Made by a program: the position numbers and the translations under genes. From positions 1 through 8,130 of IMG/VR virus record IMGVR_UViG_2537561933_000001: a stretch of DNA of 8,130 nucleotides. One strand, written 5' to 3'. Positions 1 to 8,130 of this stretch are shown here, one piece after another (within the stretch, counting starts at the first letter, position 1; every line of letters starts with the position of its first letter). This DNA is from a virus. Its lineage: Monodnaviria; Loebvirae; Hofneiviricota; Faserviricetes; Tubulavirales; Inoviridae. The notes under the pieces were generated by a model that saw only the letters and a program-made list of their open reading frames with translations, did no database searches and had not been told where the DNA came from.

Positions 1-1455
1 TTATTGATTCGACTCATATGCACTCCATTCATCGCATACATGGGAAAAGGTTGATTTCAGGGCTTCGTTATCAATCACAATTCGCTGAAGATTGGCCGTA
101 TTAGCCTGCTGAGATAGAAATCTTTTAGCGTAAAGATCAGGCATATGGCTATTGTGACTCCAACCGCCAAGTAGCCGTAATTCATCCTTGGCTTCATCCA
201 TCAATCCAACGATAGAAAAGTCTATGGCTGCCAAGTGTGAGTTGGCCTTAATTTTTTGAAGTTTATCACGATAAATACGTTGAAGTGTTAAATAAGCCCA
301 AGTATGCCGCGTTATATGAGGCGAGATGCTTTCAATGGCATCATAATATTCATCTTTTTTATATTCAGGATACTGCACACTCATAATGTCATCAATACGG
401 GTAAAGATATCATAGACTGCATGGTATGACAGTGGCGGATGTAGTCTTTGGGTGGAAGTGAACAGAAAACTATGGGAGGCTTGAGGGCGGATTTTATGGA
501 TATATATATTTAGAAAATGAAAGTCCAGTTTATCTAATGCCAGCACCCGGTTTGCATAAACATTTTTTAATGAAGGCAATCTTTTTCGTTGATCCGAAAC
601 GTCGTCATCTACTGTGGTCACAATCAGGCTGAACTGATCCCCTCGGAGATTTGGTTTGATCGAATGACACTCCAAAAGCAGTAATTCACTGACACGCAAT
701 CCGTAATTTAAAAGCAATCTGCAAATCAGAAAATTACGTAGCTGGATTTCACCAGCGGGGAAGGGATTGAGTGGGTTTTTCTTTGAAATTGAACCGGGTG
801 TAATGATTTGGTAAAAAGCCATGACCATCTCAGCAGTCAGACTTCGAAAGCGTTTATGGGTCGTGCCATTGTTCATCTGACGAGAATGGGTAAGAGTACG
901 GAATTCTGCCTTATGTATCGATAAACGTCCCGTTAACTGCGTGGCAAGTCGTGTAAGCTCTTTAGGCGTGCCATCTATATATCTCGGCGAGATATACGTG
1001 TTAATCAAATATCTGATAAAACGAATAACCGAATGTACATGCCTGATATTTGTACAACGTTGAGGCGTGGTCTGCGTAGTAGACCTTATGGTTAACGCTG
1101 GTACATATAAATGCGTATTTTCCAGATAATGAAAAAAGGCTGTAAGTTCATCAATGGCAATCAATGGATTGTGGTTCGAGGAATAGAAACTGAAGCAAAA
1201 AGTCACACCATGTTTCTGGTGCCAGAATTCATAGAAAAACTTGAGCGCTTGAAGTGAAGCGGATTGCGTGGCTGATGAACGCAAAGCAAGATGGTCGATA
1301 AGATATATTAACGGATATAAAAGCGGCTGGCGCGTGTGAGTATCCATCAGTGCCCATAAACGCTGCCGTTGGTTGATATTGAGTTGTGTAAGTATGAACA
1401 CGCGGCACTTAACCTTATCAATGGTGTGGATATGAACAAAGTAACCGACAAACAT
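1..1455 (-). CDS. Tyrosine site-specific recombinase / integrase-family protein (about 484 aa from ATG at 1453-1455; ORF track extends to a TTG at 1465-1467)
   Basis: Complete minus-strand ORF with stop at 1-3 (TAA). Translation contains the tyrosine-recombinase catalytic signature in correct order: box I Arg in 'YGLRVSELLLLE', 'HITRHTW' (HxxRH-like box II), and 'LGGWSHNSHMPDLYAK' (LG[HW]...Y catalytic Tyr region). ATG at 1453-1455 is preceded by AGGA (GCAGGACGTT-ATG). Start codon choice is uncertain. Long N-terminal region (about 250 aa) precedes the catalytic domain. Confidence 0.75.
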   Translation of the reverse strand: MFVGYFVHIHTIDKVKCRVFILTQLNINQRQRLWALMDTHTRQPLLYPLIYLIDHLALRSSATQSASLQALKFFYEFWHQKHGVTFCFSFYSSNHNPLIAIDELTAFFHYLENTHLYVPALTIRSTTQTTPQRCTNIRHVHSVIRFIRYLINTYISPRYIDGTPKELTRLATQLTGRLSIHKAEFRTLTHSRQMNNGTTHKRFRSLTAEMVMAFYQIITPGSISKKNPLNPFPAGEIQLRNFLICRLLLNYGLRVSELLLLECHSIKPNLRGDQFSLIVTTVDDDVSDQRKRLPSLKNVYANRVLALDKLDFHFLNIYIHKIRPQASHSFLFTSTQRLHPPLSYHAVYDIFTRIDDIMSVQYPEYKKDEYYDAIESISPHITRHTWAYLTLQRIYRDKLQKIKANSHLAAIDFSIVGLMDEAKDELRLLGGWSHNSHMPDLYAKRFLSQQANTANLQRIVIDNEALKSTFSHVCDEWSAYESNQ

Positions 1456-1546
1456 AACGTCCTGCAAGAAGAAGATAGAGGGGTAGGTAAGTGTATGATT
1501 AATCGTATCCTGTGGCCGGTTATGAACTAAATGACCGACGGACTAA

Positions 1547-1574
1547 ATTTAACATAATATACATTATGCGCACC
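1547..1574 (-). other. dif: 28-bp XerC/XerD recombination site dif (chromosome dimer resolution site), here the prophage/chromosome junction
   Basis: Plus strand 1547-1574 reads ATTTAACATAATATACATTATGCGCACC, the exact reverse complement of the canonical E. coli dif sequence GGTGCGCATAA-TGTATA-TTATGTTAAAT (XerC arm, 6-bp centre, XerD arm) as I recall it; 28/28 match. Lies 38 bp beyond the stop of the 77-aa cargo gene and about 90 bp upstream of the recombinase start. Confidence 0.85.
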
Positions 1575-1612: not shown

Positions 1613-1846
1613 TCATTGGTCACAGACCGTAATCCACTGGCCCAGGACGTCTTTCAGGCAATGTTGGCATAAATCCAGTTTTAAGCGATTACTGTCACCA
1701 AAAATTGAACCGTATCCAGCTAAGTGATTAACAGACAGAAACTCATTGAACTCAATGTCATCTACCACCGTCTTCGCATGGCGACCACAGCGATCGCAGG
1801 TCTTCGCACATAACATTACAGTATCGCTGGATGTGAAAAATTGCAT
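1613..1846 (-). CDS. Small zinc-ribbon protein (77 aa, two CxxC pairs), function unknown; prophage cargo next to dif
   Basis: ORF with ATG at 1844-1846 preceded by strong RBS (GAGGAGATAAA-ATG). Stop TGA at 1613-1615. Protein has CDRC (C17/C20) and CQHC (C60/C63) plus C13 and C75, consistent with a Zn-ribbon. No confident family assignment from memory. Confidence 0.6.
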   Translation of the reverse strand: MQFFTSSDTVMLCAKTCDRCGRHAKTVVDDIEFNEFLSVNHLAGYGSIFGDSNRLKLDLCQHCLKDVLGQWITVCDQ

Positions 1847-1919
1847 TTTATCTCCTCGTAATGCTGCCGCGCCGAATCAGCAATAACGCTAAAAAAACAG
1901 AATTGTTCGGCTTGGCCAA

Positions 1920-1960
1920 CCCCTGACACTAACAAAAGCAAGTTTTGTCATTGTCCGGGG
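1920..1960. promoter_or_regulatory. Imperfect 18-bp inverted repeat (15/18) around a 5-bp centre; candidate operator or structured RNA element between the two cargo genes
   Basis: CCCCTGACACTAACAAAA-gcaag-TTTTGTCATTGTCCGGGG; arms at 1920-1937 and 1943-1960, centre 1938-1942. Located in the 117-bp gap between the 102-aa gene stop (1964) and the 77-aa gene start (1846). No convincing sigma70 -35/-10 pair found nearby. Confidence 0.35.
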
Positions 1961-1963
1961 TTA

Positions 1964-2272
1964 TCATATAAACCAATAGACCGTCCTTACGCCATTCTGG
2001 TTATCAATAACATAGCCGCATTGTTTCCTTAAAAATTCTTCTGCTAAATCAATGGCTTTTACAGAAATCTCATAAGAAGGAAGTAAAGTGTATCCTTTCC
2101 CTTCACTGGCAGCTGCTTTGATCGCATCCAGAGTATTATCAATCAGTAACAGAGCAAGTGATGCTTCATTTACCTGAGCCGAAGAACTTCTGGCTGCAAG
2201 TGTCATTGTTTTTGCTTCTTCCGCTGTAATCGTTCGTTCTGCCAGAGCAGATAAAATCCCATAAGAATCCAT
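1964..2272 (-). CDS. Hypothetical protein (102 aa), Ala/Leu/Glu-rich, function unknown; prophage cargo downstream of gIV
   Basis: ORF with ATG at 2270-2272 preceded by GGGG (TTGGGGTAACTA-ATG); stop TGA 1964-1966. Same strand as phage genes and sits between gIV and dif. No recognisable motif. Confidence 0.5.
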   Translation of the reverse strand: MDSYGILSALAERTITAEEAKTMTLAARSSSAQVNEASLALLLIDNTLDAIKAAASEGKGYTLLPSYEISVKAIDLAEEFLRKQCGYVIDNQNGVRTVYWFI

Positions 2273-2297
2273 TAGTTACCCCAATCAATAATGTCCA

Positions 2298-2346
2298 TTT
2301 GATGGATAGCGAGCAGGGCTCACGCACCTACCCGCTATCCATCAAA
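2298..2346. repeat. Perfect 14-bp inverted repeat with 21-nt spacer overlapping the gIV stop codon (potential hairpin: packaging-signal-like or termination element)
   Basis: Left arm 2298-2311 TTTGATGGATAGCG; right arm 2333-2346 CGCTATCCATCAAA (exact reverse complement). gIV stop TGA is at 2342-2344 inside the right arm. No U-tract follows on the minus strand, so it is not a canonical intrinsic terminator. Confidence 0.7.
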
Positions 2347-3607
2347 GTGGACGAATGATATGTGCTGTAAGCAAAATATACATAATACGCTGTTCATTGC
2401 TGTCTGCCTTGCTACTGAAAATCCAGCCTATAAGAGGAATTTTACTTATAACTGGAACTGAACGCTCGGCATTGCTGAACGATGAATCGATAAGCCCTCC
2501 CAATAACAACGTCTGACCATCCTTAATCTGGACTGTCGTCTGAATCTGGCGCTGATTAGTAATAATATCGGATGCCTGATCATCATTGCTGATTGAATCA
2601 GCGCGAGTGTCGATAGTCAGAACTAGTTGCCCGTTACCCATGACAACAGGCGTTACCTTGAGAGAAACGCCAACATCATGACGCTCGATAGTCTGAAACG
2701 GATTATTTACCCCGGCAGATTCGCCCGTTACCTTTCCGGTGATAAACGGCACATTCTTACCTACGGAAATGTAACCAGTCTGACCAGACTGAGTAAGAAT
2801 ACGCGGCGTTGAAATCACCTTAGAGCGTGAATTACTCTGGACAGCACGCAGAGACAGCGCCAACACGTTACCATCAAAAATACCAAAAGACCCGCCCGCC
2901 GTAGAAAGAGCGCTACCCAGTGCAGAAGTATTAAAGCCCCCCGCAACCTTATGACCGGATGCAGACCCTGCCGCAAACGATAAATCAACGCCATCAGACA
3001 AGCTGGTTTCAAACATCAGCGACTGAATGAGAACCTGATCGCGGGCAACATCCACAGAATTGATAAAATCGGACAGAACCGGCAGCAGCTCGTCAGGCGC
3101 AGAAACAATCAGCGAGTTATTGCCTGGATAATCCACGACATTACCACCACCATTAGAATCAAGATAAATTTTAATCAGTTGCTGAACATCGGACGATCTA
3201 ACTTTTGTCAGCTTAAAATTTCTGACCGTAAGCGCCACAGGTACTGGCTGGTAAGATGGCTCAGAAGGAAAAGTATCATAAGACTGGTTATCAGAATCAT
3301 CGGAATCCGAAACCATCTGTGAAGGTAATTTAGACGGCAAAGAGACTACCGCAGGATTGCCAGAAAGCATGACAAAACCGTTAGCATTCAGAACAGACTT
3401 AAAGAAATCATCAATATTTGTTGGATTAACATCAGCATTAAATACGGTTACGTTTCCTTTAATATCAGGATTAACAATAACAGGCTTGCCAGTTTTTGAA
3501 GAATACCACTGAACAAATGAGCGAACAGATGAATTATTTAAATTAACAGTTTCAGCAGAAACGCAGAATGAACAGGCAAATAAAAAAGCAACAATAACAG
3601 AGCGCAT
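2342..3607 (-). CDS. IV: Filamentous-phage pIV outer-membrane secretin (virion export channel)
   Basis: Translation aligns along its length with M13 pIV as I recall it (e.g. GGSFGIF.G.VL.LS.RA...NS.SK..S.PRILT.SGQ.G.ISVG.NVPFITG.VTGESA.VNNPFQTIER; C-terminal SKIPLIG..FSS..DSNE). Start placed at ATG 3605-3607 (M32 of the track ORF), which gives a signal peptide MRSVIVAFLFACSFCVSA and is preceded by AGGAG. The track ORF start at 3700 would overlap gI. Confidence 0.95.
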   Translation of the reverse strand: MRSVIVAFLFACSFCVSAETVNLNNSSVRSFVQWYSSKTGKPVIVNPDIKGNVTVFNADVNPTNIDDFFKSVLNANGFVMLSGNPAVVSLPSKLPSQMVSDSDDSDNQSYDTFPSEPSYQPVPVALTVRNFKLTKVRSSDVQQLIKIYLDSNGGGNVVDYPGNNSLIVSAPDELLPVLSDFINSVDVARDQVLIQSLMFETSLSDGVDLSFAAGSASGHKVAGGFNTSALGSALSTAGGSFGIFDGNVLALSLRAVQSNSRSKVISTPRILTQSGQTGYISVGKNVPFITGKVTGESAGVNNPFQTIERHDVGVSLKVTPVVMGNGQLVLTIDTRADSISNDDQASDIITNQRQIQTTVQIKDGQTLLLGGLIDSSFSNAERSVPVISKIPLIGWIFSSKADSNEQRIMYILLTAHIIRPL

Positions 3608-3614
3608 AATAATA

Positions 3615-3989
3615 TTACTCCTGACAGGTAACAGTCTGTAAATAACGGCCTTTTCTAATAACAACACGACAGGCATCTTTAATATCAACGGAATAACCAT
3701 CTTTAATCAAATCAAAATACTGATATTTCATACCTTTTGCATCAACAAACGTAACGGAAACGTCAAAGCCAAGTTGTGAAAAAGAATTAATAGAAAGTCG
3801 GGGTAAGTCACTGGACGAATCAGGCGTTACCGCCCTCGCCTGTTCAGCATAAGCAGATTTAATAGCTGAGATTTCATCAACATTCTTTCCAGACTGGAGC
3901 CAGAAACCAAACGCAAGCCCCAGCGCCAAAAAAGAAAGCATTAATATAAGACGGTTCGATTTGCGAAAATAAATTTTAGTGAGGCGCAT
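3615..3989 (-). CDS. XI: Candidate pXI (in-frame internal start within gI, C-terminal membrane-anchored portion)
   Basis: In-frame ATG at 3987-3989 (M241 of pI) giving MRLTKIYFRKSNRLILMLSFLALGL..., positionally and sequence-wise matching the M13 pXI start (MKLTKIYLKKFSRVLCLAIGF as I recall). Expression is not demonstrable from sequence. Confidence 0.45.
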   Translation of the reverse strand: MRLTKIYFRKSNRLILMLSFLALGLAFGFWLQSGKNVDEISAIKSAYAEQARAVTPDSSSDLPRLSINSFSQLGFDVSVTFVDAKGMKYQYFDLIKDGYSVDIKDACRVVIRKGRYLQTVTCQE

Positions 3990-4709
3990 ATAATAATTAA
4001 ATCCTCTGTGAACAGAAAATTGACCGTGCGTGATAAATGGTGGCAAAAGCGAAAATGCGCCATGAGGATAATTATCTGTGAACGCTTGTTTGGTATTGTA
4101 AGCAGAATAAAGATATTTTCCTGTATATATCCATTTATCAACAGTGATTGAATTAACATTATCACCATATTTGACAATGCCAAAGTGTACCTTTGGTAAA
4201 GAAAATCTCGCCCCTGAAACCAAATTCATAATGGAGCCAACAAAAGGAATGTTTAATTTATCTGAACGGCGACAATAAACAACATGCTCAGCAAGCGCCA
4301 GACGAGCTTGCTTATCCATTATCGAAATATCCTGAATCAAAAATATAATATCCCAGCCTAATTTTCTGGCATGTAAAAACCAGTCAATAACAGGTTGTCT
4401 GTCTTTATCACCCCATGAGCGGGAATTAAACCAAGTACCACATTCATCAAGTACAAGGAGGCCATTACGGGATTCATCGTAAGATGCATTCCCAATACCA
4501 ATAGCAAGTAAATCATTTAATGAAGGCTTGTCAGGAATGCGAATAACGCGCGTTTTTTTCGCATAACGCCCAACCATAGGCATATTATGCAATTTAAGAT
4601 CAAGATTAGTGGCAACAGGACAACCCTTAGCAAGTCTTTCCTGTATTCTGGAAACACTAACAAGTGTCTTGCCTGAGCCTAATTTGCCTGTTACTACATA
4701 AACCGCCAT
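3615..4709 (-). CDS. I: Filamentous-phage pI assembly ATPase (Zot-like, Walker A)
   Basis: N-terminus MAVYVVTGKLGSGKTLVSV... with Walker A GKLGSGKT; long stretches match M13 pI as I recall it (RIPDKPS..DLLAIG.GN.SYDE..NGLLVLDECGTWFN.RSW.DK.RQP.IDWFLHARKLGWDIIFL.QD.SI.DKQAR.ALAE.VVYCRR). ATG 4707-4709 immediately follows gVI stop (TAA 4710-4712). Confidence 0.95.
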   Translation of the reverse strand: MAVYVVTGKLGSGKTLVSVSRIQERLAKGCPVATNLDLKLHNMPMVGRYAKKTRVIRIPDKPSLNDLLAIGIGNASYDESRNGLLVLDECGTWFNSRSWGDKDRQPVIDWFLHARKLGWDIIFLIQDISIMDKQARLALAEHVVYCRRSDKLNIPFVGSIMNLVSGARFSLPKVHFGIVKYGDNVNSITVDKWIYTGKYLYSAYNTKQAFTDNYPHGAFSLLPPFITHGQFSVHRGFNYYMRLTKIYFRKSNRLILMLSFLALGLAFGFWLQSGKNVDEISAIKSAYAEQARAVTPDSSSDLPRLSINSFSQLGFDVSVTFVDAKGMKYQYFDLIKDGYSVDIKDACRVVIRKGRYLQTVTCQE

Positions 4710-5051: not shown

Positions 5052-6256
5052 CACTCACCCCCTTTGCGAAGCAATGAAGTTAAAGAAGTAAAGACATACC
5101 AGAACGTAAGGCAATAAAAAACCCATGAAAGAACATCTTTAATAGTCAGTAATTTATCGCAACCAATATCAATCTGATAAACCTCTCCGGGAAATATAAT
5201 AAAATCAGAGCAGCCGTTACCATTGGGTAAATTAGGCAGCATAGCACCTTTATTTAAAAATGCTTCCCATAAAGCACCGTGAGAATCCTTTTCAATTCCC
5301 AATTCAGAATCAGCTAAAGTAGAAGCGCCATCTAATTCAGAGTCGCCCTTTCCATAACGAGAATCACCACCTGAAGGGTCAGCAAAACGGCCAGCCCCCC
5401 GCGTAAGATTGTTAATGGAATCGTCAAGACGATTTATATTATTCCTGGTTTGTTCATCGGCATTTTTTTTATCATCTGATGAAGTGTCTTTCTCCGTTAA
5501 TTTATCATGAATATCGCTGGCTATTTTGGGTGAAGCACCTTCGATCGCAGACTGAATATCACCTTTAGAAAGACTGGAACCACTAGAGCCACCGCCAGAA
5601 CTACCGCCACCGGACTCACCACCGCCAGACTCACCACCACCATTTTGGGGGGTTGAGGGTTTATCAGAGGGGTCAGCTACAGCACCTGTAGGCTTCCATG
5701 TTGCAGCGCAAACAGTACCATCACCCTGACAAACAATGACACCAGTAGCCTCATATTCACAGCCGTTATAGTAGATATAGCGACCACCATCATATGAATC
5801 AACATTATTAAATACACCTTCTTCTGGCGGCTTCGCTTCACAAATTTCTTCTGGTGTCGGGTCAGTAGGTTTTTCATCAGGAACAGAACGCTGAATATTA
5901 CCAACAATATAAGCCGTTAAAGACCAATATTTATCCTTCTGCCCTGGTGAATCGCTGTAAGTACAATCGCCAGTAAAAACAAGACGGAATTCAGAATCAG
6001 GCCAGATACCCTCATAAGTTGGTTTAATCCGAGTAAATACACTCTGAGCACTGGATTTAGCACCCTGACAAGCGGAGGCCTGCATAGCAGCATCAATATA
6101 GTAAACCGTTATCTTAGAGCCATCCTGATTGGTTATTTGCTTACTTTCAGCATAGGCAGAACTTTGATAAGTGGATTTAGTAATGCTTTCCCATGACTCA
6201 GCATGTGAAAAAGGAGAAATGAGGACAGCGGAAAGAATTAATATTTTCCTTCTCAT
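5051..6256 (-). CDS. III: Filamentous-phage pIII adsorption/minor coat protein (401 aa precursor)
   Basis: Start placed at ATG 6254-6256 giving signal peptide [19 protein letters not shown]. The track ORF start at 6400 lies inside gVIII and is rejected. Contains an N1-like TolA-binding domain motif ([19 protein letters not shown] vs M13 NATGVVVCTGDETQCYGTW), a Gly/Ser-rich linker [20 protein letters not shown], and a C-terminal anchor domain matching M13 ([21 protein letters not shown]...WYVFTSL vs CRPFVFSAGKPYEFSIDCDKI...MYVFSTF). Confidence 0.9.
5573..5641 (-). repeat. Short tandem direct repeats encoding the Gly/Ser-rich pIII interdomain linker
   Basis: Plus strand ...GCCACCGCCAGAACTACCGCCACCGGACTCACCACCGCCAGACTCACCACCACC... 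encodes [20 protein letters not shown] on the minus strand; repeated units about 12-15 nt. Confidence 0.6.
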
Positions 6257-6266
6257 AGTAACCCGC

Positions 6267-6293
6267 TTTAATAAAGGGGCAACGAGTGCCCCT
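6267..6293 (-). terminator. Rho-independent terminator between gVIII and gIII (minus strand)
   Basis: Minus strand reads A-GGGGCA-CTCGT-TGCCCC-T followed by TTTATTAAA: 6-7 bp GC-rich stem (6276-6281 / 6287-6292), 5-nt loop, T-rich tail. Position immediately after the major coat gene matches the strong central terminator of Ff phages. Confidence 0.6.
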
Positions 6294-6302
6294 GAGTGAA
6301 AT

Positions 6303-6545
6303 TCAAACCGCTTTTGAAGAGAATTTTTTGAAAATACGAATGGCAAGCCCAGCGCCAACCACAGCAACAACAACAGGCCATACTTTACCAATGAGATCAT
6401 TTGCCTGAGTCAACAAAGCATCCATTGCCTGACCTGCATAATCAGTACCACCTGTAGCGCCTTCAGCCGCAAAAGAACTTGCAGAAATAAAAAGCGCAGT
6501 TGAAGCCAAAGCAATTTTATATTTAACAGTAGACAGAATTTTCAT
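6303..6545 (-). CDS. VIII: Filamentous-phage pVIII major coat protein (80-aa precursor)
   Basis: Signal peptide [26 protein letters not shown] then mature [54 protein letters not shown]. Very close to the IKe mature coat protein as I recall it ([53 protein letters not shown]) and to the M13 C-terminus KLFKKFTSKAS. RBS GGAG upstream of ATG 6543-6545. Confidence 0.95.
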
Positions 6546-6564: not shown

Positions 6565-6660
6565 TTACATTAATCGGTCAGAAAATGATTTAAATGAACC
6601 GACCGCATAGAAAAGGGCAAAACCAAAGGTATAAGCCCCGAAGAAATAAACGATATACAT
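6565..6660 (-). CDS. IX: pIX-like small minor coat protein (31 aa)
   Basis: ATG at 6658-6660 overlaps the gVII stop (TAATG). Hydrophobic product MYIVYFFGAYTFGFALFYAVGSFKSFSDRLM resembles M13 pIX in size, hydrophobicity and C-terminus (..FTRLM..). It is the C-terminal part of the 74-aa track ORF, whose upstream part overlaps gV and is rejected. Confidence 0.7.
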   Translation of the reverse strand: MYIVYFFGAYTFGFALFYAVGSFKSFSDRLM

Positions 6661-6746
6661 TAACGAAAGACCCCCGCAGTAATCGCGCCGAGGCCAAAAG
6701 AAATAACGATGCCAGACGCTATCAAAATTTGAATAACATCGTCCAT
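6660..6746 (-). CDS. VII: pVII-like small minor coat protein (28 aa); not in the ORF track
   Basis: Manually translated: ATG 6744-6746, 2 nt after gV stop, giving MDDVIQILIASGIVISFGLGAITAGVFR, stop TAA 6660-6662. Resembles M13 pVII (..MIQISVVLCFALGIIAGGQR). RBS-like AAAGG 6 nt upstream. Confidence 0.75.
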   Translation of the reverse strand: MDDVIQILIASGIVISFGLGAITAGVFR

Positions 6747-7440: not shown

Positions 7441-8130
7441 ATTCCAGTTAGCGCCAAGCGTTAAATTTAAATCAATAAGCTCAGTTGTTCTTAATGTTAA
7501 TTCAATACGTAATTTATCTTTCGTCCAGTCCAGTAACCCGGCTCGTACAAACTCTTCGGCTATCTGGTGCCCTTTTTTACCAGAAACGTGTTCATCATAT
7601 TTTGAATAAAATTTTAGACTCCATCGACGGGAGTTTTTACCTAAATAAACTGTACCGCCTTTCCCACATGCGCGACCATGGCGTGTTTTAGCTTTAAATT
7701 CGGCGGCATAAAGCCATGATCTGACATTTTCCAGCGTAGATAATGAATACATGTAATTAATGTCAATACGTGAAATTTTATACTGACCTGCCATAACGGC
7801 TTTATAAGACGCTAAATCATGAGGAATATTCAATAAGGATAAAATCCTGGCATAGACCGTCAACATGAGCCCTTGTATATCATCCGACCCAACAACAGAA
7901 TGCCCCTGCAGAAACTTGGAAGGATTACCATCAATGTACAAATGTGTCGCTTTACCTTCGCCATTAGATCCTATCGATCGTACTTTCATCGTTGCTTCAT
8001 GCGAGCCGCGAACAGTCAGTCGCTTAACGGTTTCCCACTCAATTGCACCGTCAGCATCAACGCTGACAACACTCCCCGCCGGAAGCGGTTTGTGTGTGCA
8101 AGGGAAAATCCCGGTAAGCCAATCGATCAC
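7078..8130 (-). CDS. II: Replication initiation protein (gII-like rolling-circle initiator); begins at GTG exactly at the window edge
   Basis: 350-aa ORF at the gII position, directly upstream of gV. N-terminus MIDWL... resembles M13 pII N-terminus (MIDML...) as I recall it. Start codon GTG at 8128-8130 coincides with the window end, so an upstream extension or RBS cannot be checked. Stop TAA 7078-7080. Confidence 0.8.
   Translation of the reverse strand: MIDWLTGIFPCTHKPLPAGSVVSVDADGAIEWETVKRLTVRGSHEATMKVRSIGSNGEGKATHLYIDGNPSKFLQGHSVVGSDDIQGLMLTVYARILSLLNIPHDLASYKAVMAGQYKISRIDINYMYSLSTLENVRSWLYAAEFKAKTRHGRACGKGGTVYLGKNSRRWSLKFYSKYDEHVSGKKGHQIAEEFVRAGLLDWTKDKLRIELTLRTTELIDLNLTLGANWNMKTPRQLFSEYVGRIEMNQNAILSDEKITKLPRKIQSTYLLWKQGANMKEMLPHNTFYRHRRELLSFGIDINFYCDSPDSNNVVPLIRTLEAKPAEIPLWIYEKGFIFDYNRISHASSWH

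What the first reader, a model, noticed from the sequence alone, without database searches (positions are those of the whole stretch)
2298..2346. Perfect 14-bp inverted repeat spanning the gIV stop codon
A perfect 14/14 inverted repeat with a 21-nt spacer is unlikely by chance in a region this short. It lies exactly where Ff phages carry the packaging-signal hairpin (immediately after gIV). It lacks a U-tract, so it is not a standard intrinsic terminator. It could be a morphogenetic/packaging signal, a rho-dependent termination or RNA-processing structure, or a protein-binding site controlling the downstream cargo gene.
Basis: seen in the sequence. Interest (0 to 1): 0.45.

Follow-up and report, generated by a model that had tools for sequence, protein, structure and literature searches.

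The report
Packaging-signal hairpin of a filamentous prophage
The inverted repeat is the core of a 60-base DNA hairpin that a filamentous prophage of E. coli most likely uses to mark its single-stranded genome for packaging; it is the direct counterpart of the signal already annotated in the related phages IKe and I2-2, so it is real but ordinary.

Summary
The 14/14 inverted repeat (2298-2311 / 2333-2346) is real and is the longest perfect one in the window; no shuffle exceeded 12. It is the middle of a longer hairpin, 2293-2352, read on the minus strand, which is the coding and viral strand of a dif-integrated UPΦ-type filamentous prophage. The "21-nt spacer" is mostly paired, and the true loop is 4 nt.

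The hairpin spans the gIV stop codon exactly as the annotated "morphogenetic signals" of I2-2 and IKe do (pIV 73% and 69% identical). It shares their apex (GGGTAGG-T-GCGNNAGC-CCTGC) and the CGGGT...GGTG feature reported for the Ff and IKe signals.

Across 20 distinct relatives, 17 of 27 stem pairs show compensatory changes, and conservation is strand-specific. It has no U-tract, no dif half-sites and no dispersed copies. It is separate from the minus-strand origin in IKe and in small plasmids.

Best explanation: the packaging (morphogenetic) signal, confidence about 0.8. This is a new member of a known kind.

By-products:
- The apex is a "mini-hairpin DNA" cap (GCGNNAGC); a GCGNAGC cap also tops the f1 and If1 hairpins.
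- About 2-kb enterobacterial plasmids carry this hairpin beside phage-type minus and plus origins, so they look like natural phagemids.

The parts
2293..2352 (-). Complete hairpin, the candidate packaging (morphogenetic) signal. Read on the minus strand: GTCCA-C-TTTGATGGATAGCGGGTAGG-T-GC-GTGA-GC-CCTGCTCGCTATCCATCAAA-TGGAC. 27 pairs, 4-nt loop.
   Evidence: Folds. Covariance-model hit of 75 bits on this strand against 15.5 bits on the other. Covariation.
2298..2311 (.). On the viral strand it is the 3' (descending) limb.
2333..2346 (.). On the viral strand it is the 5' (ascending) limb and contains the gIV stop codon TGA at 2344-2342.
2318..2325 (-). Apex cap GCGTGAGC, of the GCGNNAGC 'mini-hairpin DNA' type: two G-C pairs closing a G..A loop. 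It is preceded by a bulged T at 2326.
   Evidence: Sequence. Motif definition and stability from PMC13037366. 16 of 20 relatives have a canonical cap.
2325..2334 (-). CGGGT-A-GGTG on the ascending limb, the feature reported as shared by the Ff and IKe packaging signals.
   Evidence: Sequence. The f1 counterpart CGGGT-GT-GGTG is seen. Literature statement via 10.1101/2023.12.30.573655.
2342..3607 (-). gIV (secretin, 421 aa as annotated in RefSeq). Its last three codons and stop codon lie in the hairpin's 5' limb.
   Evidence: Pfam Secretin E = 6.6e-43. Annotation. 73% identical to I2-2 pIV.
6660..6746 (-). gVII (28 aa, MDDVIQILIASGIVISFGLGAITAGVFR), presumed reader of the signal. The C-terminal 13 residues are identical to IKe pVII, including the terminal Arg.
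   Evidence: Role of the pVII C-terminal Arg from PMC10480500.
6565..6660 (-). gIX (31 aa, MYIVYFFGAYTFGFALFYAVGSFKSFSDRLM), presumed second reader. It has an acidic residue four from the C-terminus, as in f1 pIX E29.
3615..4709 (-). gI (Zot-type assembly ATPase), part of the assembly site to which the signal is delivered.
   Evidence: Pfam Zot E = 5.8e-41.
1964..2272 (-). orf102 (= UPΦ accessory gene h1), the 'cargo' gene. It starts 20 nt after the hairpin and is not part of the signal, but it defines its downstream boundary.
   Evidence: PMC7307601.
1547..1574 (-). Perfect 28-bp E. coli dif site marking the prophage end. This shows that the integration site is not the hairpin.
   Evidence: 0 mismatches, 0 expected by chance.

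Best explanation
The hairpin is the packaging (morphogenetic) signal of a UPΦ-type, dif-integrated filamentous prophage.

Proposed mechanism, by homology with Ff and IKe:
1. Rolling-circle replication releases the viral (+) strand, which is the window's minus strand.
2. The gene V protein coats the strand.
3. The 60-nt hairpin stays double-stranded and exposed. It is nucleated by an unusually stable GCGTGAGC mini-hairpin cap.
4. The C-termini of pVII and pIX recognise it at the pI/pIV assembly site.
5. This starts extrusion and fixes which end of the DNA leaves first.

Shown here: the structure, its strand specificity, its homology to the annotated IKe and I2-2 signals, compensatory evolution, and conservation of pVII/pIX.

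Inferred: that it actually directs packaging in this phage.
For: 1. Context. The window is an Ff-like gene set (gII, gV, gVII, gIX, gVIII, gIII, gVI, gI, gIV) on the minus strand, ending at a perfect dif site. It matches the UPΦ prophages described in PMC7307601.

2. Position. The hairpin spans the gIV stop codon, exactly as the features annotated 'morphogenetic signal' do in I2-2 (X14336 2260-2330, stop at 2271-2273) and IKe (X02139 6141-6196, stop at 6149-6151).

3. Sequence.
- The apex GGGTAGG-T-GCGNNAGC-CCTGC is shared with I2-2, IKe and PEar phages.
- Among 50,697 phage records, the only matches at a corresponding site are in these Lineavirus members, at the gIV end or annotated signal; the few other weak hits lie inside unrelated genes.
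- The ascending limb reads CGGGT-A-GGTG, the feature reported as common to the Ff and IKe signals. f1 reads CGGGT-GT-GGTG.

4. Structure under selection.
- In 20 distinct sequences, 17 of 27 pairs have changes on both sides. The covariation score is 0.335 against 0.158 in shuffles (0 of 500 as high), and the named register beats all slid registers.
- Every lineage folds on its own, with z from -3.7 to -9.2.
- The closest divergent relative (pIV 93% identical) differs at 5 of 60 positions: two compensatory double changes and one loop base.

5. Strand specificity. The model scores 75 bits on the viral strand and 15.5 bits on the complement. A conserved T·G wobble is present in 16 of 20 sequences.

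6. Cognate proteins. The pVII C-terminus FGLGAITAGV(F/L/I)R is conserved in all lineages examined (the window's SFGLGAITAGVFR is identical to IKe's), and pIX keeps an acidic residue four from the end in the window, all UPΦ-type relatives and I2-2, though IKe has Asn there. The corresponding residues recognise the signal in M13.

7. Modularity. In IKe and in small plasmids the hairpin is distinct from the minus-strand origin. In the plasmids it travels with phage-type minus and plus origins, the combination needed for packaging by a helper.
Against: - No packaging experiment exists for this phage, and I could not read the primary paper on the f1 and IKe signals (Russel & Model 1989 is not held). 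The functional status of the IKe element therefore rests on database annotation and a secondary citation.
- Loop substitutions reportedly do not impair the Ff signal, so the conserved cap may not be what the proteins read.
- No IKe-like minus-strand origin was detected in the prophage, so a priming role for this hairpin is not excluded.
- The same sequence exists in the gIV-h1 mRNA, where a 27-bp stem could also act.
Confidence: 0.8

Rival explanations
1. RNA-level element. The hairpin acts in the gIV-h1 transcript as a terminator, a 3'-end stabiliser or an RNase III processing site that separates or tunes expression of gIV and the downstream accessory genes.
For: - As RNA it is extremely stable (-48.3 kcal/mol, z = -8.3).
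- The IKe record labels the homologous stem-loop 'pot. transcription termination, morphogenetic signal'.
- No sigma-70-like promoter was found between the hairpin and orf102, so orf102 is probably read from the same transcript.
Against: - There is no U-tract and no terminator call at the site.
- Only about 20 nt separate the hairpin from the orf102 start codon, which leaves little untranslated RNA for Rho.
- The same hairpin occurs in IKe and I2-2 without downstream genes, and in plasmids without gIV, next to single-strand replication origins.
- The conserved GCGNNAGC cap is far more stable as DNA (about 70-76 °C) than as RNA (39 °C for the tested octamer).
- It could still be a secondary role.
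Confidence: 0.1
2. Complementary (minus)-strand origin. The hairpin is a single-strand initiation site, for example a G4-type primase site, that starts conversion of viral ssDNA to the double-stranded form.
For: - Mini-hairpin caps of the same class (GCGAAAGC, GCGTTAGC) sit at the primase-dependent complementary-strand origins of G4, St-1 and α3, and they bind SSB poorly.
- BLAST found no IKe-like minus-strand origin in the prophage.
- The hairpin is also present in small rolling-circle plasmids, which need such an origin.
Against: - IKe and the plasmids carry a separate Ff-type minus-strand origin in addition to this hairpin. IKe 6316-6455 is about 80% identical to L139 1308-1451.
- There is no similarity to microvirus origins.
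- The CTG in the descending limb is buried in the stem and is absent from apex variants such as the L147 type, L004 and L155.
- The prophage has another candidate: a two-hairpin intergenic region between h1 and h2.
Confidence: 0.07
3. Double-stranded DNA palindrome bound by a dimeric regulator or recombinase, for example to control the cargo genes or integration.
For: It is a long, near-perfect palindrome located just upstream of accessory gene h1.
Against: - Conservation is strand-specific (75 against 15.5 bits).
- The stem contains conserved G·T wobbles and an asymmetric bulge and cap, which have no meaning in duplex DNA.
- The lower-stem sequence is free to vary as long as pairing is kept.
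- The dif site used for integration lies about 720 nt away, and no dif-like half-site matches in the hairpin with up to 3 mismatches.
- The hairpin exists in non-integrating phages without cargo genes.
Confidence: 0.02
4. Chance palindrome or a dispersed repeat (REP/MITE-like).
For: None beyond its being an inverted repeat.
Against: - None of 60 shuffles reached 14 nt.
- In 5,426 E. coli genomes it occurs only at the end of this prophage's secretin gene: 49 genomes, 106 places.
- It is conserved with covariation across genera.
Confidence: 0.01

Closest known systems
Morphogenetic signal of phage I2-2 (X14336, nt 2260-2330)
   Same: - Same position, spanning the gIV stop codon.
- Same strand.
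- Same apex GGGTAGG-T-GCGNNAGC-CCTGC.
- Similar stem length.
- pIV 73% identical; gII 56% identical, of the same type.
   Different: - The lower stem sequence differs but keeps pairing.
- In I2-2 the signal is followed by the replication origins. Here it is followed by two accessory genes, a dif site and three reverse-oriented genes before the plus origin.
Packaging signal of phage IKe (X02139, nt 6141-6196/7)
   Same: - Same position and apex.
- CGGGT-A-GGTG on the ascending limb.
- pVII C-terminus identical.
   Different: - The IKe stem has more mismatches (z = -3.7 against -8.7 here).
- The IKe gII and plus origin are of the Ff type, unlike UPΦ and I2-2.
Ff (f1/M13/fd) packaging signal, hairpin A
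   Same: - A long imperfect hairpin on the viral strand just after gIV.
- CGGGT...GGTG on the ascending limb.
- Capped by a GCGNAGC mini-hairpin motif (GCGCAGC).
- Read by pVII/pIX.
   Different: - It starts about 10 nt after the stop codon rather than spanning it.
- There is no alignable similarity outside the short motifs.
- pIV is only 50% identical.
Hairpin I of the G4/St-1/α3 complementary-strand origins
   Same: An ssDNA hairpin capped by the same mini-hairpin class. St-1 and α3 use GCGTTAGC, identical to the I2-2 cap.
   Different: - It is a priming site with an accessible CTG and an 8-bp stem, in microviruses.
- It has no sequence similarity beyond the cap.
- Here a separate minus-strand origin exists in the nearest relatives.
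Folded ssDNA attP of CTXφ
   Same: A hairpin on the viral strand of a dif-integrating filamentous phage.
   Different: - The CTXφ hairpin is made of two dif-like sites.
- Here the hairpin has no dif-like sequence, and a perfect dif lies about 720 nt downstream.
Packaging signal of Xanthomonas integrative inoviruses (φLf-UK)
   Same: A cis-acting DNA hairpin required for encapsidation in integrative filamentous phages.
   Different: Those signals are 20-26 nt with 7-8-bp stems, mostly lie inside gII, are orientation-independent, and have a different consensus.

Membership tests
Ff/Lineavirus-type packaging (morphogenetic) signal | Lies on the viral (+) strand at the 3' end of gIV, at the start of the region that is intergenic in Ff, IKe and I2-2. 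| tested here: met
   The hairpin at 2352-2293 on the coding strand spans the gIV stop at 2344-2342. The geometry is the same as the annotated I2-2 and IKe features.
Ff/Lineavirus-type packaging (morphogenetic) signal | Long (about 20 bp or more) imperfect hairpin that is stable in single-stranded DNA. | tested here: met
   27 pairs, -24.5 kcal/mol with DNA parameters, z = -8.7. It is the strongest local fold in the window.
Ff/Lineavirus-type packaging (morphogenetic) signal | Sequence homology to a signal annotated or studied in a relative, including CGGGT...GGTG on the ascending limb. | tested here: met
   A 21-nt apex is shared with IKe, I2-2 and PEar, and CGGGT-A-GGTG is present. The motif statement comes from a secondary citation.
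Ff/Lineavirus-type packaging (morphogenetic) signal | Structure, rather than lower-stem sequence, is conserved among relatives (compensatory changes). | tested here: met
   17 of 27 pairs have changes on both sides. Covariation is 0.335 against 0.158 in shuffles (0 of 500). The named register is best. Window against L148: two compensatory doubles.
Ff/Lineavirus-type packaging (morphogenetic) signal | Cognate pVII, pIX and pI are present. | tested here: met
   pVII and pIX were found at 6746-6565. The pVII C-terminus is identical to IKe's. pI (Zot) is present.
Ff/Lineavirus-type packaging (morphogenetic) signal | Needed in cis, in one orientation, for efficient encapsidation, and located at the pVII/pIX end of the virion. 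| not testable with these tools
   This requires transducing-particle or virion assays. Only strand-specific conservation could be shown.
Intrinsic (rho-independent) terminator | GC-rich stem-loop immediately followed by a T/U tract. | tested here: not met
   The sequence after the stem is ATTATTGATTGGGG, and the scan gave no call at this site.
Ff-type minus-strand origin (hairpins B and C) | Homology to the IKe/Ff minus-origin hairpins (IKe 6333-6438). | tested here: not met
   The hairpin does not match that region. In IKe and in plasmid L139 the minus origin is a separate, adjacent module.
G4-type primase-dependent origin | Hairpin with a mini-hairpin cap and an accessible, conserved CTG start site; similarity to microvirus origins. 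| tested here: inconclusive
   The cap class is shared. However, the CTG is inside the stem and is lost in apex variants, and no microvirus similarity was found. Priming itself cannot be tested here.
CTXφ-type folded attP / XerCD site | dif-like XerC and XerD binding half-sites within the hairpin. | tested here: not met
   The only dif match with up to 3 mismatches in the window is at 1547-1574.
Dispersed palindromic repeat (REP/MITE) | Many copies in unrelated genomic contexts. | tested here: not met
   All 106 copies in 49 E. coli genomes lie at the end of the prophage's secretin gene.
Known RNA family (Rfam 15) | Match at or above a family's gathering score. | tested here: not met
   The only hit at the hairpin is a generic hairpin match to a microRNA precursor model, at 26 bits against a gathering score of 100 (a second sub-threshold hit, 21 against 70, lies on the neighbouring 1921-1959 hairpin).
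Mini-hairpin DNA (GCGNNAGC / GCGNAGC) | Octamer or heptamer GCG(N)NAGC positioned so that it can form two G-C pairs and a sheared G·A pair. | tested here: met
   GCGTGAGC sits at the apex (2325-2318). 16 of 20 relatives have a canonical cap, and f1 and If1 have GCGCAGC. The definition comes from PMC13037366. The stability of GCGTGAGC itself is not among the values I saw.

The most novel reading that the evidence does not exclude
The hairpin is a portable packaging module, not just a phage-internal signal.

- The same mini-hairpin-capped apex, on freely varying stems, is carried next to IKe-type minus origins and Ff/IKe-type and/or I2-2/UPΦ-type plus origins by about 2-kb 'non-mobilizable' plasmids of E. 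coli, Klebsiella and Salmonella.
- That would make these plasmids natural phagemids, or satellites, that hitch-hike in UPΦ/Lineavirus virions.
- A GCG(N)NAGC mini-hairpin cap would then be the common nucleation or recognition element of Ff-like packaging signals, one that resists coating by protein V and SSB.
Probability: 0.4. Interest if true: 0.65.

Novelty: new member of a known kind. Interest (0 to 1): 0.3.

Why it matters
For the finding itself:
- It supplies the missing cis-element annotation for UPΦ prophages, which are common in urinary and extra-intestinal E. coli and whose description (PMC7307601) does not mention a packaging signal.
- It gives a defined 60-nt target for testing virion production and for building UPΦ-based transducing vectors.

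More broadly, the comparison suggests two testable ideas:
- Ff-like packaging signals are generally capped by the extraordinarily stable GCG(N)NAGC DNA mini-hairpin.
- A class of tiny plasmids now scored as non-mobilizable may move between cells inside filamentous-phage coats.

Tried and rejected
- **dif/XerCD hairpin (CTXφ-like attP).** Rejected. The only dif match is at 1547-1574.
- **The 488-aa integrase-like ORF (1-1467) as part of the system.** Rejected. It lies beyond dif, outside the prophage.
- **REP/MITE.** Rejected.
- **Intrinsic terminator, or a promoter for orf102.** None found.
- **Rfam.** Nothing meaningful.
- **IKe-type minus-strand origin in the prophage.** Not found by blastn at E < 0.1. 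This leaves the prophage's minus origin unidentified.
- **Similarity to microvirus origins.** None.
- **MAFFT alignment A1.** It misregistered the lower stems, so I replaced it with a covariance-model alignment. That alignment leans towards the model structure, and only 72% of cells pair because indels in the lowest part remain poorly aligned.
- **Co-occurrence of the plasmids with UPΦ prophages in complete E. coli genomes.** Comparing the strain names listed, I saw no shared strain between the 28 plasmid-bearing and 49 UPΦ-bearing genomes. The expected overlap is about 0.25, so this is uninformative.
- **Divergent apex against pVII/pIX.** The L147-type lineages keep the same pVII and pIX C-termini, so there is no protein-signal co-variation to exploit.
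- **Russel & Model 1989.** Could not be read.
- **Exact-pattern hits.** About 10 of the 51 hits were chance matches in GC-rich contigs without a hairpin.

Full report
**Observation.** TTTGATGGATAGCG (2298-2311) and CGCTATCCATCAAA (2333-2346) are 14/14 complementary and 21 nt apart. It is the longest perfect inverted repeat in the window. In 60 dinucleotide-preserving shuffles the longest was 8-12 nt.

The description understates the structure. Read on the minus strand, the helix runs from 2352 to 2293: GTCCA-C-TTTGATGGATAGCGGGTAGG-T-GC-GTGA-GC-CCTGCTCGCTATCCATCAAA-TGGAC. That is 27 pairs, one unpaired C, one bulged T and a 4-nt loop. As single-stranded DNA it folds at -24.5 kcal/mol, with z = -7.5 in an 86-nt context and -8.7 for the 65-nt element. 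As RNA it folds at -48.3 kcal/mol, z = -8.3. It is the most stable local fold in the window on either strand.

**Context.** All genes are on the minus strand and form an Ff-like set: gII (cut by the window end), gV, gVII, gIX, gVIII, gIII, gVI, gI (Zot) and gIV (secretin), followed by two small ORFs.
- A perfect 28-bp E. coli dif site lies at 1547-1574, so the prophage ends there. The 488-aa ORF with a weak integrase match (1-1467) is outside it.
- In complete E. coli genomes the element sits next to hipBA, often in tandem copies about 8.6 kb apart.
- This matches the UPΦ phages described by Shapiro and Putonti: related to IKe and I2-2, dif-integrated, tandem, with two accessory genes in a region that is intergenic in IKe and I2-2. 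That paper does not mention a hairpin, a morphogenetic signal or a packaging signal (PMC7307601).

**Homology to annotated signals.** The pIV protein is 73% identical to that of I2-2, 69% to IKe, about 70% to the Erwinia PEar phages and 50% to f1.
- The I2-2 record annotates a 'morphogenetic signal' at 2260-2330, overlapping the gIV stop at 2271-2273.
- The IKe record annotates 'stem loop structure pot. transcription termination, morphogenetic signal' at 6141-6196, overlapping the stop at 6149-6151.
- The window hairpin has the same geometry. Extracting the region after the gIV stop from relatives shows a shared apex, GGGTAGG-T-GCGNNAGC-CCTGC, on lower stems that differ in sequence but pair.
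- A sensitive search of 50,697 phage records with the 70-nt element finds IKe, I2-2 and the PEar phages, each at the gIV end or annotated signal. The only other hits are a few weak matches inside unrelated genes of mycobacteriophage and Salmonella phage genomes.
- The ascending limb reads CGGGT-A-GGTG. [quoted passage not shown] I could not read the primary paper.

**Selection on structure.** I collected relatives by exact apex pattern and by pIV homology regardless of apex. I built a covariance model and aligned 20 distinct hairpins.
- Of 27 pairs, 17 show changes on both sides.
- The covariation score is 0.335 against 0.158 in shuffles (0 of 500 as high).
- The named register beats all slid registers.
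- Only 72% of cells pair, because indels in the lowest part of the stem remain poorly aligned, and the alignment is fitted to the model. As an alignment-free check, each lineage folds on its own with z from -3.7 to -9.2.
- The closest divergent relative (pIV 93% identical) differs at five of 60 positions: A·T to C·G, A·T to G·C, and one loop base.
- Conservation is strand-specific. The model scores 75 bits on the viral strand and 15.5 on the complement, and a T·G wobble is kept in 16 of 20 sequences. This argues against a double-stranded protein-binding palindrome.

**Other rivals.**
- There is no T/U tract and no terminator call at the site. No sigma-70-like promoter lies between the hairpin and orf102, and only about 20 nt separate the hairpin from that start codon.
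- The hairpin contains no dif-like sequence.
- In 5,426 E. coli genomes it occurs only at the end of this prophage's secretin gene.
- Rfam gives only sub-threshold generic hairpin hits.

**The readers of the signal.** In M13, the C-terminal Arg of pVII and an acidic residue near the C-terminus of pIX recognise the signal (PMC10480500).
- The window encodes pVII (6746-6660, ...SFGLGAITAGVFR), whose last 13 residues are identical to IKe pVII.
- It also encodes pIX (6660-6565...SDRLM), with an acidic residue four from the end.
- The pVII C-terminus is conserved in every lineage examined, including one with a divergent apex. The pIX acidic residue is kept in the UPΦ-type lineages and I2-2, but IKe has Asn at that position.

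**The cap.** The apex GCGTGAGC belongs to the GCGNNAGC/GCGNAGC class that Kimoto and Hirao call mini-hairpin DNA.
- These form two G-C pairs and a sheared G·A pair, with Tm about 70-76 °C as DNA against 39 °C for the tested RNA octamer. They bind SSB poorly (PMC13037366).
- Measured values exist for caps found in this family: GCGTAAGC 71.5, GCGTTAGC 69.5, GCGCAAGC 72.0, GCGGAAGC 71.0 and GCGAAGC 76.5 °C.
- Sixteen of 20 hairpins have a canonical cap; four have GCGTTAAGC. The post-gIV hairpins of f1, If1 and their relatives are capped by GCGCAGC.
- The review does not mention filamentous phages or packaging.
- The same class caps the primase-dependent origins of G4, St-1 and α3, which raises a priming-site rival. 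Against it: IKe and the plasmids described below have a separate Ff-type minus origin. The CTG in the descending limb is buried and is lost in apex variants. No microvirus similarity exists. The prophage has another candidate, a two-hairpin h1-h2 spacer.
- The rival is weakened, not excluded, because no IKe-like minus origin was found in the prophage.

**An unexpected by-product.** Twelve metagenomic loci with the apex hairpin have no pIV.
- They, and 60 PLSDB records, are mostly 1.5-2.4-kb plasmids of E. coli, Klebsiella and Salmonella; 4 of the 60 are hits inside large conjugative plasmids. 56 are scored non-mobilizable.
- One class encodes a gII-family Rep about 36% identical to UPΦ and I2-2 gII. 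Another class encodes a Rep_1 (pC194-family) protein.
- Both carry an IKe-like minus origin (about 80% over 145 nt) immediately next to the hairpin, plus phage-type plus origins.
- The finished plasmid pEC11-7 (2,261 bp) has, in order: the IKe-like minus origin, the hairpin, an Ff/IKe-type nick core TTTAATAGTGGACTC (also present in f1 and IKe), and an I2-2/UPΦ-type plus-origin hairpin. It also has its own Rep_1 gene.
- That is the architecture of a laboratory phagemid. It fits a packaging role for the hairpin and suggests that these plasmids hitch-hike on Lineavirus or UPΦ helpers.
- I found no description of this in the searchable literature. A co-occurrence test was uninformative.

**Verdict.** The element is best explained as the packaging signal of a UPΦ-type prophage, orthologous to the annotated IKe and I2-2 signals (confidence about 0.8). 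An accessory RNA role or a priming role is not excluded. It is a new member of a known kind, of modest interest in itself. The mini-hairpin cap and the phagemid-like plasmids are the parts worth following up.

Noticed in passing
L187 (pEC11-7, NZ_CP060944.1) 560-1100; L139 1274-1800; L140; L101 1680-2170; L102: Plasmids of about 2 kb in E. coli, Klebsiella and Salmonella carry a filamentous-phage intergenic cassette: an IKe-like minus origin, the apex hairpin, and Ff/IKe-type and/or I2-2/UPΦ-type plus origins. They also carry either a gII-family Rep or a Rep_1 gene. 56 of the 60 records are scored non-mobilizable. They look like natural phagemids or satellites.
   Followed up: partly
window 2318-2325; f1 L086, If1 L087, L163-L171 (post-gIV hairpins): Post-gIV hairpins of IKe, I2-2, UPΦ, f1, If1 and Photorhabdus relatives are all capped by a GCG(N)NAGC 'mini-hairpin DNA' motif (GCGCAGC in f1 and If1). 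The mini-hairpin review does not mention filamentous phages.
   Followed up: partly
window 1845-1963 (minus strand), = L002 15737-15856: The 118-nt spacer between accessory genes h1 and h2 folds into two adjacent hairpins on the viral strand (-22 kcal/mol) with no T tract. It is a possible minus-strand origin, since no IKe-like one was found in the prophage.
   Followed up: partly
L002 17702-17750 (outside the window, upstream of gII): I2-2-like plus-strand origin hairpin AACGTGCAGTGTAGGTAATACTGCACGTT, lying between two reverse-oriented small genes. The motif GTAATACTGCAC is shared with the small plasmids.
   Followed up: partly
window 1547-1574; L002 16126-16160; NZ_CP092647.1 (EC5502): There is a perfect dif at the prophage end, and a hybrid dif-like site (GGTGCGCATAATGTCAACGCGTTATG...) at the junction between tandem copies. 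Most genomes hold 2 copies, and one (EC5502) shows 16 places.
   Followed up: no
window 1-1467 (minus strand): A 488-aa ORF with a weak, sub-threshold Phage_integrase match lies just beyond dif, outside the prophage. Other strains have different genes at this position.
   Followed up: no
window 8031-8120 (minus strand): The second most stable viral-strand fold in the window (-22 kcal/mol) lies inside the 5' part of gII. Its significance is unknown.
   Followed up: no
window 6271-6293 (minus strand): GGGGCACTCGTTGCCCC followed by TTTAT lies right after gVIII. It resembles an intrinsic terminator, at the position where I recall (untested here) Ff phages have theirs after gene VIII.
   Followed up: no
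L003, L009, L012, L022: Genome records labelled Candidatus Nanosynbacter, SAR11, Actinomadura and Paenibacillus contain sequences identical or near-identical to UPΦ, f1 or If1-like phage. These are probably contamination or mis-binning (L009 matches f1 exactly over the region compared).
   Followed up: no
L013-L021, L172-L184 (Halomonas/Vreelandella-type relatives, pIV 40-44% identical): These more distant inoviruses have no strong hairpin directly after gIV, so their packaging signal, if any, must lie elsewhere.
   Followed up: no
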